A stretch of DNA of 64,000 nt from assembly GCA_963701855.1 (NCBI GenBank), contig CAVPBK010000005.1, forward strand, positions 64,001 to 128,000. The letters are read 5' to 3'. Position numbers: made by a program. Below, piece by piece: positions 36,001-42,000 of this stretch. The number at the start of each line of letters is the position of its first letter. Position 1 is the first letter of the stretch. This stretch comes from Nitrospirota bacterium. Its GTDB lineage: Bacteria; Nitrospirota; Nitrospiria; Nitrospirales; Nitrospiraceae.

Positions 36001-39000
36001 CTGGATAATCTCTGCGCCATTGTGGATGTCAATCGACTCGGTCAAAGCGATCCCACCATGCTGCAACACGACATGGAGGGCTATCGTTCCCGATGGGCTG
36101 GCTTTGGCTGGCAAGCGCTGGTGGTTGACGGGCACGACCTTTCAGCTTTGCTCGCAGCCTTTGATGCCGCCGCATGCACCAAAGGCAAACCGACGGTGCT
36201 TCTCGCCAAAACATTTAAGGGCAAGGGCATTTCCTTCATGGAGAACCATCCTAGCTGGCATGGGAAGCCGGTCGCCAAAGGTGAGGAAACTCAGAAGGCG
36301 ATCGATGAGTTGACCAATCAGTTGAAGCCGAGCAGGACCGCCATAGCATTGAAGAAGCCAGCGGCGCCGGTTCAAGGGCCGTCGTCAATCAGCCCTCTCC
36401 CACCTTCGCCCTACAAAGTAGGCGACGCTGCCGCTACGCGTGAAGCGTTCGGCAATGCATTTGAAGCACTGGGCGCGGTCAATTCACTAGTCGTGGGACT
36501 GGATGCCGATGTAAAGAATTCGACCTATACCGATAAATTCGGCAAGAAGTTTCCCAATCGATTCTTTGAAAATTTCATCGCGGAGCAAAACATGCTCGGG
36601 GCTGCAGCCGGTTTAGCCGCCTGCGGGAAAATTCCGTTTGTCGCCACGTTTGCGGCATTTTATACGCGAGCCTACGACTTCATTCGCATGGCTGCCATCA
36701 GCGGCTCGAACATCAAACTCGTCGGCACACACGTCGGCGTGAGCATCGGAGAAGACGGTCCCTCGCAAATGGGATTGGAAGATATTGCGATGATGGCTGC
36801 ACAACCGGGCGTGACCGTGTTGTATCCGTCCGATGCGACCTGTATGTATCGGCTCGTTGAAAAGGCTGCTACGCACAAAGGGATGGTCTACATTCGGGCT
36901 GGTCGCCCAAAATCTCCGGTCCTATACGGACCAGATGAAGCCTTCCAGATCGGCGGATCGAAGGTCATTCGCCAAAGCGCGTCAGATGTCCTTACGATTG
37001 TTGCGGCCGGCGTCACGCTCTTCGAGGCCTTGAAGGCGTACGACACATTGAAAGGCGCGGGCCTCTCCGTGCGGATCGTCGATCTTTATAGTATTGTTCC
37101 CATTGATCGCATCACATTGCTGGACAGTGCCAGAGCCACTCAGGGGCGCATCCTCACCGTTGAGGATCATTATGCGCACGGCGGTCTCGGAGATGCAGTG
37201 CTCAGCGCGGTCGGACCAGAAGGCATTAAAGTGCATAAGCTTGCCGTTCGCACGATCCCACACAGCGGAAAACCGGACGAGCTTGTCGATCACTTTGGCA
37301 TCGGAGCACGATCGATTGTGGAAGCAGCTAAACAAATCACAAAGTAAGCCCGCCCGCGCCAGCCTTCCTCATGAGTTGGTGCGGTATTTCTTTTCTGAAC
37401 ATTCTGAGAGGACCGGTGCGCCAACGTCTGCTTCAGGAACTGACAGAAGCCCGCTATGGCAGTGACTGTTCGTGGAGAAACATCAGTCCGGCGATGATTT
37501 CGCATGGCGTGCGAAACTGGTTGGATTTCAATTGCCCACTCATGGTGCGTTTATTCCAGTATGGGGGGCCAGGTCTGCCGTGATGCAGGACTGCATAATT
37601 TCAGCGCGGCATTGCCATGACGTGGCCGCCGTATTGAGATGGTGAACCAGTTCTTCCGGCACGATTATGCCAACGGTGATATCCACCAAGACGTGATCGG
37701 GTATGCGATGAAAATGCGCGGCGTTCACACCCTGAAGGGTGAGCAACGCCCTGCTTAGCTCGTTCTCATGGGTGTAGCAGCCAGGTCCTATCAGCACGAC
37801 GGGAACTCTCTCCATGGCAGCGTGGCTGGCTGCGGCTGGCTGAAATACGGCAAGACCCACGGTGAGCGCCATCGCAAGCATCAGACGGTTGTGTCTAAGC
37901 GTGGCCTTGCCGTCTGCATGAGGCTGTGGGCAGGTTGCGGCTACGCTCTTCGCGAAGGGCGTCTGCGTCCGGTTTGCGTATCCGCGATGAGCTGTTCGCG
38001 TCATCGGAATACCTGTCTGCAGGGAGGCGATCTGAAGCCCTTGGGTAGGTTCATCGATTTGTCTTAAGATCTCATGGTAGACGGTGATGCGAGTTGTCGG
38101 ACCATGCGAATCTCCGGTTCGGCTGGGTTGCAGTGTTCCTCTCTTGAACGCGTTCACGGGCAGGCGGCGAGGATCTCACCGCCTGCCCGTCGCCCTTTAC
38201 GGTACTTCGACGATGTCCTTCTTCATAGGACCCAGCACAGCAAGGAGTTCGTTCTTTTCCCTGGCTGGCACGTTGAACGTATCCAATGCCTTGACGAGGT
38301 CTTCAACCAGGGCATTGAAGGCAGCCGTCGTGATTTTCATGCCGGCATGCGTTGTTTTCATGTCTTTCCCATCATAGGTGCAGGGGCCTCCGCTGGCTTG
38401 GCAGACCTGGTCGACCAGCTGCTTCTTCAGGTGCGGCAGATCGGCATGGGCAAAATACCCGTTGATGCGGGTGTCTTGGCCCACGATGCTGACGAACTTG
38501 CCGACGACGGCCGTGATAGGGCCGGTTCCGCCGAGCCGTTCATATAGTGAGGGCAACGGAGCATCGGCTGCCCACACCGGCGATGAGATCAACAGCAAGG
38601 AGACGGTCAGCATAGTCTTGATGGCGCAAGAAAGTTGTTTCATGAAAGGCGCTCCTTTTTGAGAGGTAATTGAGGGCTTCCTTCGAGTGCACAGCTCTAT
38701 CATATTTCAGGTCGTTTAGGGCTTCCAGGGCGTCAGTGGCATCAGCGGAGCATCCTTGGCTACCGGTGTAATCGTCAGCGCGGCAATGGCTCCACGAAGG
38801 GCTCCAGTGAGCGAATGCGTCACAATCGGATAGACCCCGGGTGATTCGGAGACCAAGTCGAATGTGGCGGCGCTTCCGGGTCCTACGACATAGGTTTGTA
38901 CCCCTGTGAGTTTGTTGGCAGGGTTCCCGCTCTCGTAGACGTTGTCCCAAATCTCGCCGATCGGGTGGAGCGAGGAAAACTCGTTGGGGCCCGCGTTCAC

Positions 39001-42000
39001 AAAATAGATCCGGACCCGCTCATTCGGTTTCGCCTCTAGCGCTTCCGCGCCGATGAAGAAGGGATGATACTTGAAGATCCCTCCGTTGAAGACCGTATAG
39101 TCGAACTTCCGAGCGAACATGGCCTCGACATCGTCGGGGTTCTTCCAGAGCTCAGATTGGACCAACAAAAACTCCCGGTCCGCTTTCGGCCAGACCTTCG
39201 GATCCTTGGGATCGACGATAATCGCGCCGAACATGCCGCGCGCGACGTGCTGAATCATGGGTGCTGCGCCGCAATGATAGAAAAACACGCCGGGCTTCTT
39301 CGCCACAAAGGTGAAGGAAATGGTTTCTCCCGGATTGATGGCCCGGTAGTTCTTCAGGAAATCGATTTCCGCCGCATGGAAGTCCATGGCGTGTGGAAAA
39401 ACATTGGTCTTGGGATTCTCCAGCGTGAAGTTGACAGTGTCACCTTCCGTGACCCGCACGGCCGGCCCCGGCATCTGGCCGTTGAACGTCCAGGCCTTAT
39501 ATTTCGTTCCCGTTCCTTCAATCACGATTTCCGTTTCGAGCGCCGTCATCTTGACGTCATGGGTCTTCGCGGATGCCTCGGAGGGCAATCCCATCAATCC
39601 GGCAATCGCAAGGGCCGTGGCCCCTGCGATGGCCATGAGTTGAGGTGATCGTCTTTTCATCATGGTTGGACTCCTCTCTGAAATGGTTGGGCGAACTTCT
39701 CCGGGCAAATGTGCAACTGGTCTTTTCTTATGTGAAGGGTCTCACTGGCACTTCGTCTGTATGTGAGGAAAAGAATAACAGAGCAAAATTGTCTAGTGTA
39801 TATCGTAGCGTTCGGTTAAGAATCAAGCCCTTTGTTAGTCCCAAATGAGCCTGTGACCCAAAACCCGAAAAGTAGGCCAGGGGGAGCTTGAGGAAATGCC
39901 CCGCGACGTGGTCTTCTTAACTCAGAAGGAGGACCCGACGAGGGCACGACGACGAGGGTATATCGAAGAGCAGCTCCTGGCGGCCGTGCGACACGCGGAG
40001 GGCGGGACGACCGTAGTCGAGGGCTGTCGAGAGGTGGGGATCAGTGAGCAGACGTTCTCCCGCTGGAAACGAACGTACGTAGGGCTGGGGCTGAGCGAAC
40101 TCCGCGAGCTCCGGCAACGCCGAGAAGAGACCACGAAACTGAAGCGGCTGGCGGCCGATCTCTCACTTGATCGGCATAGGTTGCAGGAGATGGTGCGAAA
40201 AGAGCGGTACGGCCTCGGGACCGGCTGGCGCTGGCCCGCTGGGCGCACACGACCTACCAGGTCAGTGAGCGCCGACTCACGGTCGTGTTGCGGCGGGAGG
40301 GGGGCACGTGAATGCGAAACGGATCTATCGGCTGTATACGGACGAAGGGCTGACGGTGCGGACGAAACACCGCACGAAGGCCGCAGGCCGAGCCCGTGTG
40401 CCGCAGGCCCGAGCCACGGCGCCGAACGAGCGGTGGAGCATGGGTTTTATGAGCGAGCGTGTGGCGAATGGCCGCTGGGTTCGGATTCTGACCGTCGTGG
40501 ACCAGTTTACACGGGAGTGTCTGTGCTTGGTGGCGGATCAGTCGCTCACCGGAGAGACGGTGGCGGAGGCGGTAGAGCCGGTGGTGATGCACCGGGGCGC
40601 ACCGCGTGCGCTCACCGTGGACAACGGCAGCGAATTTTCCAGCCGCGTCATGGATGCCTGGGCCTACCGGCATGGGATCCCGCTGGATTTTATTCGACCG
40701 GGGAAGCCGGTGGCGAATGGCTTCATCGAGAGTGTCAATGGGCGGCTCCGTGATGAGGGTCTGAATGTGGACGTGTTCTTCACGCTGGACGAGGTGCAGG
40801 AGAAATTGGCGCGATGGCGGACGGACGATAACCTCCTACGCCCGCACAGTGCGTTTCAGGATCAGGCGCCAGTCTCTTTTGCGGCGAAGTGGTTCGCCGC
40901 CCGGCCGACGGCTCCGGCCTCTTCCGAATTGCTGGAGCCACTCACGTGAGCGATGCGAGCGTTGTAACGCTGCATGGGCGGCTCACACCGATCACGCGCA
41001 GGCCAATTCCTCAGGGCTCGATCGGTCTACATTCGCGGGGCGGGTCAGAAAGCCACAACATCGATTTTCATGCGGTCACTGGACCGGGTGGTGGAGCAGC
41101 AAGCCTCAATACCGACCAGGGGAGGAAAGTGAGTTACGATTTAAGGCCCTCAATGCTGGCCTCCATTTCTATCACTGTGCCACCGCATCGCCATCCATTC
41201 CTGAACACATTGCGAATGGAATGTATGGCGGGATCTTAGTTGAGCCGGTTGGCGGGCTTCCCAAGGTAGACAAAGGGTTTTATGTCGTGCAGAGCGAGTT
41301 TTACACCAAGCCTGGCAAGAAGGGCGAGACCTTGGAATTTTCGTTCGAAAATGGGTTAACGGAGCACCCGTTACATGTGGTGTTTAACGGCATGGCGGGT
41401 TCGCTTATCAAGAATCTTCTGATGGCCAAGGTGGGCGACACCATTCGAATGTATTATATCAACGCAGGACCCAATCTGACCGAAAATTGGCACGTCATCG
41501 GCGAGATATTTGACAGGGCGTACCCCAAGGGTTCCTTGATTATGCCTCCATTGCAGAACGTCCAAACCACTGTCGTGCCGGCTGGTGGCTCTTCCATGGC
41601 AGAGTTTAAGATCGAGGTGCCTGGAACCTATATCAATGTGGACCACGCAATCTTCCGCATCGCAAAAGGCGCCGTTGGCCTGATAAAGGTGGAAGGTGCG
41701 GAGTAATCGGACATCTACAAGAACCTCCTGAAGTAATCGGAGGAGATTACACCGCTGTGACCTCAAAACACAGCGGTGTAAATCTGTAGCGGTCAGGCAT
41801 CATGGTTTGATGAATGTGACGCAGTAACCTAGTCTAGGGGAGGGAGAGGCATTGCTTCTCCCTCTTTTTATTCGAAAGGGTGAGTTAATGGGGTGATCGC
41901 AGAGCATCTGGTTCACAGCATATCGACGTCACGAAGTTCCCGGTAAGATCGCTGTCAGCCCATCTCCAGTTGCGTGTGGATCATCTTGCGTGTGGGTCAT

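What a model noticed while it worked through the whole genome (the two positions that open the first line are those of the whole stretch)
38197..39663. Secreted truncated haemoglobin coupled to NirK beside the ammonia monooxygenase genes
Three and a half kb from amoCAB a copper nitrite reductase gene (nirK, type-1 and type-2 copper ligand motifs present) is followed 72 nt later on the same strand by a group-1 truncated haemoglobin (trHbN) that, unlike the genome's second trHbN and unlike known trHbs, starts with a Sec signal peptide (MKQLSCAIKTMLTVSLLLISSPVWA/ADAP). I read the pair as a periplasmic nitric-oxide module: NirK makes or consumes NO and the exported globin binds or dioxygenates it, which would give complete ammonia oxidisers a haem route from the obligate intermediate NO to nitrate/nitrite outside the cytoplasm, a candidate for the still missing 'NO oxidoreductase' step of ammonia oxidation. 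A secreted trHb partn [...]
Evidence so far: g01057 (315 aa, Cu-oxidase_3+Cu-oxidase_2, 38.8% id to Neisseria AniA; motifs HAMDFHAAE and FFYHCGAAPMIQHVARGMFG) and g01056 (148 aa, Bac_globin, 30-33% id to Paramecium trHbN / Mycobacterium GlbN over residues 32-147, i.e. after a 26-31-aa hydrophobic N-terminal extension ending VWA|AD). The other trHbN g02447 (123 aa) begins directly with the globin fold. neighbours.tsv: Bac_globin within two genes of Cu-oxidase_3 in 98 of 511 Nitrospirales and only 169 genomes overall, of 32,618 that have both families. Same contig: amoCAB g01062-64, copCD, ccm, haoAB-cycAB g01082-85, and two more tandem NirK paralogues g01088/g01089 with a cytochrome c; g01088 has lost the type-1 Cys (YQSS for YHCA) and [...]
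(Added by a program. Inside this text positions count along the whole contig: contig position 64,001 is position 1 of the stretch shown here. "Call 12" and the like, gene names such as g00115 and contig names such as C1 are that model's own, and its searches are not shown. The text may have been shortened before it was handed on; [...] marks where a part breaks off. The agent that wrote the report below was given it as the finding of a first reader that could run no searches.)

Follow-up and report, generated by a model that had tools for sequence, protein, structure and literature searches.

The report
Exported globin partnered with comammox NirK
In complete ammonia-oxidising Nitrospira the copper nitrite reductase gene is followed by a haemoglobin that is sent outside the cytoplasm and probably sits on the reductase, giving a testable candidate for how these bacteria handle nitric oxide.

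Summary
On the minus strand, nirK (38716-39663) is followed after 72 nt by a 148-aa group-1 truncated haemoglobin (38197-38643) with a Sec-type signal peptide.

The claim "unlike known trHbs" is wrong. The protein belongs to the described TrHbN-2 subgroup, which has an apolar distal pocket. Most of its nearest relatives in metagenomes also carry export signals.

What looks new is the coupling to NirK:
- The nirK-globin adjacency occurs in 37 of 43 sampled genomes with amo/hao markers, and in 1 of 158 without.
- The linked NirKs form one clade.
- All 30 linked globins have cleavable signal peptides, whereas unlinked Nitrospira homologues are lipoproteins.
- Clade A adds a cytochrome c downstream; clade B adds an HMA-like protein.
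- A complex prediction passed its controls. The lineage-specific residues of both proteins concentrate in the predicted interface.

I read it as a periplasmic, NO-selective haem partner of NirK, not a TyrB10-type NO dioxygenase. A role as the missing NO oxidoreductase is not excluded. It cannot be universal, because one complete amoA/hao genome lacks the module.

This scan has already found the same module in two other genomes.

The parts
38716..39663 (-). nirK, copper nitrite reductase of the comammox-specific, globin-linked clade (315 aa; signal peptide residues 1-32, ...ASA|KTHD)
   Evidence: ORF and Shine-Dalgarno. Pfam Cu-oxidase_3/2. Best solved relative 4kns at E 2.6e-101. Putative Cu ligands invariant. 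Falls in a clade with SH-aLRT 99 that holds all 30 linked NirKs.
38644..38715 (-). 72-nt nirK-globin spacer carrying the globin's AAGGAG ribosome-binding site, with no stable structure
   Evidence: Sequence. Fold z-score +1.15. One 1526-nt contig from an RNA library bridges it.
38197..38643 (-). Exported group-1 (TrHbN-2 type) truncated haemoglobin, 148 aa. Key residues: Val51(B10), Phe64(CD1), Leu72(E7), Leu76(E11), Cys81, Cys88, His99(F8).
   Evidence: Pfam, PDB sequence hits, model pLDDT 87.9, Foldseek rmsd 0.9-1.1 A to trHbN structures, residue counts.
38569..38643 (-). Codons of the Sec type-I signal peptide MKQLSCAIKTMLTVSLLLISSPVWA, with cleavage proposed before ADAP
   Evidence: n/h/c regions read from the sequence. 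30 of 30 linked homologues keep this architecture with low sequence identity. Unlinked homologues carry lipoboxes instead. Model pLDDT is 47-52 over residues 1-20. No dedicated predictor was run.
38150..38193 (-). G+C-rich hairpin directly after the globin stop codon; likely 3' end or stabiliser of the nirK-globin transcript (no U-run follows)
   Evidence: Minimum free energy -39.1 kcal/mol, z -6.3, 0 of 200 shuffles fold as well.
37540..37881 (-). Downstream exported 113-aa protein (signal MLAMALTVGLAVFQPAAASHA, three Cys); possible HMA/MerP-like periplasmic metal-binding protein
   Evidence: Found downstream of the globin in 5 of 5 clade-B loci, and at 33% identity in two clade-A-side loci. 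No Pfam hit. Atlas feature hits to 'HMA domain-containing' and 'mercuric transport periplasmic component' clusters at 0.90-0.91 are a lead only.
39896..40949 (+). IS3-family transposase remnants (HTH_Tnp_1; rve) between nirK and amoB
   Evidence: Pfam. The same kind of remnant lies at this spot in two relatives and is absent in a third.
43190..46264 (-). amoB, amoA and amoC upstream on the same strand (context; linked to the pair in clade B only)
   Evidence: Pfam Monooxygenase_B and AmoC. Synteny amoCAB-nirK-globin in three further same-genus genomes.

Best explanation
nirK and the globin form one periplasmic unit that is specific to complete ammonia oxidisers.

**The globin.** It is exported by Sec, its signal peptide is cleaved, and it takes up haem b in the periplasm. 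It is a TrHbN-2 globin. The proximal His is kept, and the distal pocket is wholly apolar: Val B10, Phe CD1, Leu E7, Leu E11. That pocket disfavours stable O2 binding and leaves NO as the preferred ligand. A conserved Cys81/Cys88 pair probably forms a disulfide.

**The proposed mechanism.** The globin docks on domain II of NirK, beside the cleft between subunits. The globin face that I place at the tunnel mouths, by recalled helix equivalence to the solved SbHbN structure, is turned towards the enzyme. I propose that it captures, buffers or hands over NO at the type-2 copper site. NO could arrive from hydroxylamine oxidation, or leave as the product of nitrite reduction. Electrons would pass through the still-free type-1 copper port, to the co-encoded cytochrome c in clade A.

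**What is shown and what is inferred.**
- Shown: the gene pair, its conservation, its restriction to this lineage, the fold and the pocket residues.
- Shown comparatively: export.
- Model-supported: binding to NirK.
- Inferred: NO as the ligand, the direction of flux, haem loading and the disulfide.
For: **1. Unit.**
- The two genes share a strand with a 72-nt unstructured spacer. The globin has its own ribosome-binding site, and a strong hairpin follows it.
- Contigs from RNA libraries of 4 studies cover both genes, and one 1526-nt contig bridges them.

**2. Lineage restriction.**
- In one fixed sample of 201 genomes of the order, the adjacency (gap 65-134 nt, same strand) occurs in 38.
- Of those 38, 32 have amoA, 3 more have HAO, and 2 more have amoB and/or amoC.
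- That makes 37 of 43 marker-positive genomes and 1 of 158 others.
- Marker-negative genomes of the same family, including complete ones, hold both a NirK (72-79% identical) and a globin homologue (57-73%), but far apart.

**3. NirK clade.** All 30 linked NirKs, plus one second copy, form one clade with SH-aLRT 99 and a stem of 0.36.

**4. Export.**
- 30 of 30 linked globins have type-I signal peptides.
- The 20 unlinked homologues examined carry lipoboxes plus linkers in nearly every case.
- All 97 homologous domains with Cys at position 88 also have Cys at 81. Of these, 89 lie in proteins with a signal-like N-terminus.

**5. Pocket.**
- Among 80 named homologues, B10 is Val/Ile/Leu in 80, E7 is Leu in 79, E11 is Leu in 80 and F8 is His in 80.
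- This is the published TrHbN-2 consensus, which is expected to give low O2 affinity (PMC11904497, passages).

**6. Binding.**
- Complex prediction with three NirK copies and one globin scored 0.64, against 0.35 for the best of 3 controls. That mark was reached by 116 of 157 solved complexes and 2 of 215 mismatched pairs.
- The runs agree in at least 95% of contacts, and the partner's pLDDT is at least 85.
- The counts hold only roughly here: I used my own alignments, and three copies are unlike the calibration.
- Columns that separate linked from unlinked proteins concentrate in the predicted interface. For NirK it is 7 of 23 interface positions against 7 of 260 others (Fisher p 2e-5). For the globin it is 5 of 18 against 4 of 99 (p 0.004).
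- NirK Glu207 is Glu in 24 of 25 linked sequences and Gly/Lys/His in unlinked ones. It touches globin Lys49, which is Lys in 25 of 25 linked sequences and mostly Asp or Gln in unlinked ones (7 Asp, 6 Gln, 1 Lys among the three commonest of 15 rows).
- In the named loci, Lys49 is present in 46 of 46 adjacent globins, and Glu207 in 41 of 44.

**7. Partners.** Clade-A-type loci have an exported monohaem cytochrome c downstream in 22 of 22 cases.

**8. Physiology in print.** In N. inopinata, NirK is the second most abundant protein, NO is released and then re-consumed under oxic conditions, and the NO-oxidising enzyme is unknown (PMC6478695, passages).
Against: - Nothing here shows haem binding, NO binding, localisation or a physical complex.
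- In the complex prediction, the control with NirK replaced still scored 0.35, so the globin is somewhat sticky in the model.
- The interface-enrichment test is confounded by surface exposure. It is also confounded by shared ancestry, since the group-specific changes may sit on one or two branches.
- No coordinates were available. I could not measure the haem-to-copper distance, the position relative to the type-2 channel, or the Cys-Cys distance.
- The literature reads apolar TrHbN pockets as suited to O2 transport or storage. The one studied TrHbN-2 protein is discussed in terms of peroxide reactivity.
- Several of the unlinked Nitrospira-family homologues examined sit beside LysR regulators or ECF-sigma/ChrR-type regulators. 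That hints at a stress role for the family.
- Six marker-positive genomes lack the adjacency. One of them is a complete single-contig genome with amoA and hao but no orthologous NirK (G111).
- Ferrous haem releases NO too slowly for a carrier, so the model needs a ferric resting state. That is my assumption.
Confidence: 0.5

Rival explanations
1. Periplasmic NO dioxygenase. The oxy-ferrous globin converts NO to nitrate and is re-reduced by a periplasmic donor, such as the neighbouring cytochrome c. This would detoxify NO made by NirK or HAO.
For: - The fold is that of HbN, the model NO dioxygenase.
- A cytochrome c gene follows the globin in 22 of 22 clade-A loci and could serve as reductant.
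- From my own knowledge, NO dioxygenation by oxy-globins does not strictly need TyrB10.
Against: - TyrB10, GlnE7 and GlnE11 are all replaced by apolar residues in every homologue checked.
- By my inference, the reaction would consume reductant and bypass the electrons obtainable from NO and nitrite. It fits a side reaction better than a conserved partner of a highly expressed NirK.
- Clade B has no cytochrome c gene at the locus.
Confidence: 0.13
2. O2 or oxidative-stress protein with no direct tie to NO. It would be a periplasmic low-affinity O2 store or carrier (for example towards AMO), or a peroxide-reactive protective globin. Its adjacency to nirK would reflect only co-regulation.
For: - Apolar TrHbN pockets are read as suited to O2 transport or storage. 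SbHbN reacts with peroxides (PMC11904497, passages).
- Trhbs are thought to carry O2 to methane monooxygenase in methanotrophs (PMC11102522, passage).
- Unlinked homologues lie beside LysR or ECF-sigma/ChrR regulators.
- In clade B the pair lies just downstream of amoCAB.
Against: - The conserved neighbour is NirK, not amo. In clade A the pair is far from amoA.
- Linked globins switched from a lipoprotein to a soluble form. They also acquired lineage-specific residues, and these fall in the predicted NirK interface.
- The SbHbN peroxide chemistry depends on Tyr CD1, which is Phe here.
Confidence: 0.15
3. Redox partner. The haem-b globin acts as electron donor or acceptor for NirK, in place of pseudoazurin or cytochrome c551.
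For: - Exported trHb domains fused to multihaem cytochromes are proposed to take part in periplasmic electron transfer in cable bacteria (PMC11976967, passages).
- Clade B encodes no cytochrome c at the locus.
Against: - The predicted interface (NirK 50-52, 201-210, 275-277, 297-302, 314-315) contains none of the type-1 copper loop residues 131-144.
- Clade A encodes a separate cytochrome c alongside the globin.
- E10 is not conserved (Gln, Leu or His), so there is no conserved bis-ligated, electron-transfer type haem.
Confidence: 0.08

Closest known systems
TrHbN-2 subgroup of group-1 truncated haemoglobins; only studied member Shewanella benthica SbHbN (PDB 7TT9, 8UGZ, 8TLS; PMC11904497)
   Same: - 2-on-2 fold and proximal His F8.
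- Hydrophobic B10, E7, E11 and G8, with Phe CD1 as in the subgroup consensus.
- Cys at E16.
- PDB sequence hits at E about 1e-13 and Foldseek rmsd 1.0-1.1 A.
- The paper describes hydrophobic tunnels opening at the GH turn and between the E and B helices.
   Different: - SbHbN is 116 aa with no N-terminal extension in the solved chain. Here there is a cleavable signal peptide and a second Cys at position 88.
- SbHbN has Tyr CD1 and His B13, which drive its peroxide chemistry. Position CD1 is Phe here; B13 was not checked.
- The words signal peptide, periplasm and lipoprotein do not occur in that paper's main text. I did not see its supplements.
Mycobacterium tuberculosis HbN and Tetrahymena trHbN (TrHbN-1, NO dioxygenase type)
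   Same: Same fold (rmsd 0.9-1.0 A, 32-33% identity), the Gly-Gly motifs, and His F8.
   Different: The TyrB10/GlnE11 (GlnE7) hydrogen-bond network that defines their O2 and NO-dioxygenase chemistry is absent. They are cytoplasmic, and they are not linked to nirK.
Cable-bacteria periplasmic pentahaem cytochromes fused to truncated-haemoglobin domains (PMC11976967)
   Same: A trHb domain behind a signal peptide, with a proposed periplasmic redox role.
   Different: Those are fusion proteins with multihaem cytochromes, proposed as O2 reductases. Here the globin is a stand-alone domain encoded after nirK.
Nitrosomonas europaea NirK (PDB 4KNS; organism recalled, the entry title reads 'Multicopper oxidase type 1') and its ncgABC-nirK operon (recalled)
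   Same: It is the closest solved NirK (E 2.6e-101 over residues 33-300). It is a nitrifier NirK encoded together with accessory periplasmic redox proteins.
   Different: The accessory genes differ. There they are a multicopper oxidase and cytochromes c upstream; here they are a globin, and then cytochrome c or an HMA-like protein, downstream.
Cytochrome c' / c'-beta and NO-selective H-NOX domains (functional analogues, recalled)
   Same: A periplasmic (cytochrome c') or sensor haem, with an apolar distal pocket that excludes O2 and binds NO. Comammox genomes largely lack cytL and nitrosocyanin (PMC6478695 and 10.1101/138586, passages).
   Different: The folds are unrelated and cytochrome c' carries haem c. 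This is a resemblance in how it may work, not family membership.

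Membership tests
Group-1 truncated haemoglobin (trHbN), subgroup TrHbN-2 | 2-on-2 helical fold / Bac_globin domain | tested here: met
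   Pfam PF01152 at E 3.9e-15, 56.5 bits against a cut-off of 21. Model pLDDT 87.9. Foldseek TM 0.87-0.95 (target-normalised) and rmsd 0.9-1.1 A to trHbN structures. Group-2 structures rank lower, at E 1e-4 to 1e-3.
Group-1 truncated haemoglobin (trHbN), subgroup TrHbN-2 | Proximal His F8, Phe CD1, and Gly-Gly motifs (AB and EF) | tested here: met
   His99, Phe64, Gly38-Gly39 and Gly85-Gly86-Pro87 are invariant in 22 aligned homologues. F8 is His in 293 of 296 homologous domains.
Group-1 truncated haemoglobin (trHbN), subgroup TrHbN-2 | Hydrophobic residues at B10, E7 and E11 (subgroup-2 consensus as given in PMC11904497) | tested here: met
   Val51, Leu72 and Leu76, placed by alignment to the Tetrahymena Y25F, Q46E and Q50E variant entries. 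The same holds in 79-80 of 80 named homologues. No phylogeny against the paper's own subgroup set was made.
HbN-type NO dioxygenase (TrHbN-1 functional class) | TyrB10 with GlnE11 (and/or GlnE7) stabilising bound O2 | tested here: not met
   Val/Ile at B10 and Leu at E7 and E11 in all linked homologues.
Copper-containing nitrite reductase NirK | Two cupredoxin domains with type-1 ligands (His, Cys, His, Met), type-2 ligands (three His) and the catalytic Asp/His | tested here: met
   H91, C131, H139, M144; H96, H130, H283; D94, H233. All are invariant in 53 sequences. There is a full-length match to solved NirKs. The assignment of these residues as ligands rests on recalled NirK motifs, not on coordinates.
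Sec type-I signal peptide | Basic n-region, hydrophobic h-region, and small residues at -3 and -1 | tested here: inconclusive
   The sequence fits by eye, and 30 of 30 linked homologues keep the architecture. My heuristic is unspecific: it also flagged 29 of 60 window ORFs, membrane proteins among them. SignalP and LipoP were not available. There is no twin-arginine motif.
Operon (co-transcription of nirK and the globin) | One transcript covering both genes | tested here: inconclusive
   Contigs from RNA libraries of four studies cover both genes and one bridges the spacer. Contigs cannot prove a single transcript or exclude DNA carry-over.
Stable NirK-globin complex | Physical binding | not testable with these tools
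   There is only a model. Score 0.64 against best control 0.35; the mark was reached by 116 of 157 solved and 2 of 215 mismatched pairs; runs agree in at least 95% of contacts; partner pLDDT at least 85. Lineage-specific residues are enriched at the interface.

The most novel reading that the evidence does not exclude
The NirK-TrHbN-2 complex, with its cytochrome c in clade A, is the long-sought NO oxidoreductase of complete ammonia oxidisers. The exported globin would collect nanomolar NO from hydroxylamine oxidation through its hydrophobic tunnels. It would then do one of two things. It could feed the NO to the type-2 copper of a NirK running in reverse. Or it could oxidise the NO itself through a ferric-nitrosyl intermediate. 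Either way, the electron would leave through type-1 copper to cytochrome c. That would remove the kinetic objection raised against NirK alone.
Probability: 0.13. Interest if true: 0.95.

Novelty: new variant of a known kind. Interest (0 to 1): 0.72.

Why it matters
**The open question.** Ammonia oxidisers are thought to need an enzyme that oxidises NO to nitrite. None is known in comammox Nitrospira, which lack nitrosocyanin. [quoted passage not shown]

**What this finding adds.**
- A globin partner that is specific to comammox NirK, exported and predicted to dock on the enzyme gives a concrete hypothesis. It can be tested with recombinant proteins.
- It points to a large, essentially unstudied set of exported TrHbN-2 globins in many bacteria: single-domain, lipoprotein and tandem forms.
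- It bears on how these organisms keep NO and N2O emissions low.

Tried and rejected
- **Globin tree.** The tree of 60 rows and 119 columns is unresolved. Only 2 branches are starred. A single origin of the linked globins is neither shown nor excluded.
- **Promoter and terminator scan.** Over 37400-40200 it found 1 promoter-like site, lying inside nirK, against 1.0 expected. It found no terminator-like site at the hairpin, because no T-run follows. No promoter is assigned.
- **RNA contig ends.** In the four RNA libraries no contig covers 39729-39900, and only weak separate contigs cover 38000-38190. I laid no DNA run beside them, so this says nothing firm about transcript ends.
- **Signal-peptide heuristic.** It flags any N-terminal hydrophobic stretch. 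It flagged 29 of 60 window ORFs, so the 113 of 150 figure is a rough count.
- **orf113.** Pfam found nothing at E up to 0.1. Only an Atlas lead to HMA/MerP-like clusters exists.
- **Literature.** Searches found no paper describing an exported single-domain trHb beside nirK. Palomo et al. (10.1101/138586, passages) mention a TrHb1 in comammox only as a nitrosative-stress protein. The word "globin" does not occur in the 6 supplementary files held for PMC6478695.
- **Disulfide and geometry.** These could not be tested because the tools return no coordinates.
- **Considered and dropped.** Tat export is unlikely because the globin has no twin-arginine motif. A longer 168-aa ORF starting at 38703 is unlikely because two relatives lack that upstream ATG and the Shine-Dalgarno sits before MKQ.

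Full report
**What is there.**
- On the minus strand, nirK (38716-39663, 315 aa) is followed after 72 nt by a 148-aa globin gene (38197-38643). Each gene has a Shine-Dalgarno sequence.
- The spacer has no stable fold (z +1.15).
- Directly after the globin stop lies a G+C-rich hairpin of 19 pairs (a 16-pair core), at 38150-38193. Its free energy is -39.1 kcal/mol with z -6.3.
- Pfam places the globin in Bac_globin over residues 32-144. It places NirK in Cu-oxidase_3 and Cu-oxidase_2.
- The nearest solved globins are group-1 truncated haemoglobins.
- A model built on 70 aligned sequences has pLDDT 87.9, with low confidence only over the first 20-25 residues. It superposes on M. tuberculosis HbN, Paramecium, Tetrahymena and Shewanella benthica trHbN at rmsd 0.9-1.1 A.
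- The nearest solved NirK is 4kns (E 2.6e-101).
- The residues I take to be the copper ligands and the catalytic Asp/His are invariant in 53 aligned NirKs.
- The genome holds one other globin, a 123-aa protein without an N-terminal extension. It holds no other close NirK, only three paralogues at 31-36% identity.

**Export.**
- No signal-peptide predictor was on hand, so I relied on comparison.
- All 30 NirK-linked homologues I fetched keep the same N-terminal layout: a basic start, about 14 hydrophobic residues, and an A-x-A end. The sequence itself is poorly conserved, and an AAGGAG-type site lies before the proposed ATG in 26 of the 30 as printed; for the other four the script took a more upstream ATG.
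- Twenty homologues that are not next to nirK have a lipoprotein box followed by a low-complexity linker, by my reading of the printed N-termini in about 19 of the 20. These came from marker-negative relatives and from second copies in comammox genomes.
- Two different export signals on orthologous domains are hard to explain unless the domain works outside the cytoplasm.
- A library-wide search found 4573 relatives at E up to 0.001. Among the best 150 representative clusters, 113 have a signal-like N-terminus by my crude rule: 58 cleavable type and 55 lipobox. The rule is unspecific, because it also flags 29 of 60 ORFs of this window.
- Many of these relatives are tandem arrays of two to eight detected globin domains.
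- Proteins with a signal-like N-terminus almost never have Tyr at B10 (1 of 113), and 70 of the 113 have the Cys pair. Of 36 proteins without a signal, 19 have Tyr B10, and none of those 19 has the pair.
- Every one of the 97 domains with Cys at position 88 also has Cys at 81.
- A cytoplasmic haemoglobin clade and an exported one are thus separable by sequence.

**The pocket.**
- I aligned the globin to the Tetrahymena entries whose variants name the positions (Y25F, Q46E, Q50E). This puts Val51 at B10, Leu72 at E7 and Leu76 at E11, with Phe64 at CD1 and His99 at F8.
- These hold in 79-80 of 80 named homologues.
- A note from an earlier report of this scan pointed me to a 2025 paper, which I then read in passages (PMC11904497). 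It splits group N into TrHbN-1 and TrHbN-2.
- It gives TrHbN-2 (about 1500 sequences) a consensus of hydrophobic B10, E7, E11 and G8 with Phe CD1, and expects low O2 affinity. It calls S. benthica HbN the first member studied.
- So the apolar pocket is a known property of a little-studied subgroup, not a novelty of this gene.
- That paper's main text does not contain the words signal peptide, periplasm or lipoprotein. I did not see its supplements.
- Position E10 varies (Gln, Leu or His), so a conserved six-coordinate haem is unlikely.

**Distribution.**
- I searched the same sample of 201 genomes of the order with the globin, AmoA, NirK and HAO. I computed adjacency from the listed coordinates.
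- The globin table leaves 65 weaker matches unlisted, and the NirK table leaves 102. All orthologue-level hits are listed.
- nirK followed by the globin on the same strand, at 65-134 nt, occurs in 38 genomes.
  - 32 of the 37 amoA genomes have it.
  - Three more have HAO.
  - Two more have amoB and/or amoC, found when I searched three handles only.
  - One, G036 (99% complete, 80 contigs), has no marker that I found.
- That is 37 of 43 marker-positive genomes, against 1 of 158 others.
- Kin are not independent.
- The six marker-positive genomes without the adjacency fall into three kinds:
  - three with partial NirK hits (G077, G159) or a weak one (G155, 1.0e-36), of which G155 is highly fragmented (430 contigs);
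  - two without an orthologous NirK, G085 and G139;
  - G111, a single-contig genome with amoA and hao, no NirK orthologue (best hit 7.3e-44), and only a lipoprotein globin beside a LysR gene.
- Marker-negative genomes of the family, nine of them complete, carry both a NirK at 72-79% identity and globins at 57-73%, but hundreds of kilobases apart.
- Among 80 named loci from species-representative genomes, 46 have NirK upstream. Of these, 45 have a cleavable-type signal and one has a lipobox. The homologues from Burkholderiales, Casimicrobiaceae, Competibacteraceae, Mesorhizobium and others have none within 2.5 kb. The named and unnamed sets overlap in genomes.

**Evolution.**
- In a tree of 70 NirKs, all 30 linked ones plus one second copy form a single clade. 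It has SH-aLRT 99 and a stem of 0.36 changes per site, and it sits inside the family's NirK diversity.
- The globin tree is unresolved.
- Clade-A-type NirKs carry a lipobox: 48 of the 53 N-termini my script could classify, the 5 others being outside clade A or unclassified. The window's NirK has a cleavable MMKRRSPQL...ASA signal.

**Neighbours.**
- Clade-A-type loci have an exported 152-aa monohaem cytochrome c about 200-330 nt after the globin in 22 of 22 cases.
- Clade B instead has an exported 113-aa protein with three Cys (37540-37881). It is present in 5 of 5 clade-B loci and, at 33% identity, in two others. It has no Pfam hit, and only an Atlas lead to HMA/MerP-like clusters.
- In three further same-genus genomes the order amoC-amoA-amoB, gap, nirK, globin, orf113 is kept. 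The gap is 0.8 kb with no IS, 2 kb with IS3 remnants, or 6 kb.
- The IS material in this window therefore entered an existing juxtaposition.

**Expression.**
- Six metatranscriptome runs of four studies hold 38-51% of the sampled words of the stretch.
- I laid one run from each of the four studies. Their contigs (90-99% alike, hence from related strains) cover both genes, and one 1526-nt contig spans 38191-39715.
- This shows presence in RNA libraries and a bridging contig. It does not show a single transcript.

**Binding.**
- I folded three NirK copies (residues 33-315) with one mature globin (residues 26-148), each with its alignment.
- The score was 0.64, against 0.35 for the best of three controls. 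That mark was reached by 116 of 157 solved complexes and 2 of 215 mismatched pairs.
- The runs agree in at least 95% of contacts, and the partner's pLDDT is at least 85.
- The tool warns that the counts hold only roughly for my own alignments and for a job with three copies.
- I know of no solved NirK-globin complex, but I made no dedicated search for one.
- On NirK the interface uses residues 50-52, 201-208, 210, 275-277, 297, 299-302 and 314-315 of one subunit, and residue 103 of the next. It includes none of the type-1 copper loop (131-144).
- On the globin the interface uses the B helix (40-52), the E helix (69-77) and the end of G with the GH turn (118-124). By my own helix equivalence, not a residue-level alignment, these match the places where the SbHbN paper locates tunnel exits.
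- As an independent check, I asked which alignment columns separate linked from unlinked proteins.
  - For NirK, 14 of 283 columns do so, and 7 of them fall among the 23 interface positions (p 2e-5).
  - For the globin, 9 of 117 do so, and 5 fall among the 18 interface positions (p 0.004).
- Glu207 of NirK and Lys49 of the globin are both specific to the linked forms, and they are a predicted contact.
- The check is confounded by surface exposure and by shared descent.

**Reading.**
- The pair is best explained as a periplasmic unit in which an NO-preferring haem protein sits on NirK near the inter-subunit cleft. The type-1 copper port is left free for a redox partner.
- The literature supplies the physiological gap. 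N. inopinata makes and re-consumes NO under oxic conditions and expresses NirK as its second most abundant protein. It lacks nitrosocyanin and has no known NO-oxidising enzyme, and NirK alone is judged kinetically poor for that role (PMC6478695, passages).
- A partner that concentrates NO at the enzyme would address that objection. This step is inference.
- The dioxygenase reading loses its main support, the TyrB10/Gln network, but it is not excluded.
- An O2 or peroxide role is the reading the globin literature would favour. It explains neither the NirK-specific adjacency, nor the change from lipoprotein to soluble form, nor the interface-specific substitutions.
- The absence of the module from G111 argues that it is not indispensable for complete ammonia oxidation.

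**Novelty.**
- Both families are known. So is the TrHbN-2 pocket, and exported trHb domains have a precedent in cable bacteria (PMC11976967).
- I found no paper on three points: the comammox-restricted nirK-globin unit (with cytochrome c or an HMA-like protein), the breadth of exported TrHbN-2 globins, and a NirK-globin complex.
- Two earlier reports of this scan describe the same module in other genomes. Their claims of adjacency, export and a non-dioxygenase pocket agree with what I tested here.

Noticed in passing
window 40765-41706 (+), with 40889-41239 in another frame: Remnant of a distant NirK paralogue, about 34-36% identical to the linked NirK. It points away from the pair, is cut at its 5' side by the IS3 remnants, and is split by a frameshift. 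The HNIDFHAV copper motif lies in a different frame from the C-terminal two thirds.
   Followed up: partly
window 42032-42507 (+): Short ORFs resembling the C-terminal end of a histidine kinase and the start of a response regulator, between the NirK remnant and amoB. One same-genus relative has matching fragments at the same place.
   Followed up: no
window 37540-37881 (-): Exported 113-aa protein with three Cys directly after the globin. It is conserved in clade B. There is an Atlas lead to HMA/MerP-like periplasmic metal-binding proteins, so it may be a copper chaperone for NirK.
   Followed up: partly
P0121-P0157 and others: Metagenomic proteins with two to eight detected tandem trHbN-like domains (the search table lists up to 12 matched stretches), up to 1882 aa long. 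Those with signal peptides or lipoboxes lack Tyr B10. Long signal-less arrays mostly keep Tyr B10.
   Followed up: partly
L033-L052 (unlinked homologues in relatives): Nitrospira-family genomes carry one or two lipoprotein TrHbN-2 genes in two sequence groups. These often sit beside a divergent LysR regulator, or beside an ECF sigma factor with a ChrR-type cupin anti-sigma, or beside DUF4331.
   Followed up: partly
L011-L032, L116-L149: Clade-A-type linked NirKs have a lipobox (LGASGC), so NirK is probably a lipoprotein there. The clade-B NirK of this window has a cleavable signal with an RR pair.
   Followed up: partly
G111 (genome search): A single-contig genome with amoA and hao has no orthologous NirK and no NirK-linked globin. 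G085 and G139 likewise lack an orthologous NirK.
   Followed up: partly
window 50309-52215 (-): Three consecutive ORFs of about 200 aa with signal-like N-termini and no Pfam hit, between the CopD-cytochrome c gene and the ccm cluster.
   Followed up: no
G036 (L010 and L087): One genome with no amo or hao marker found carries both a canonical-type NirK and a globin-linked NirK with its globin.
   Followed up: partly
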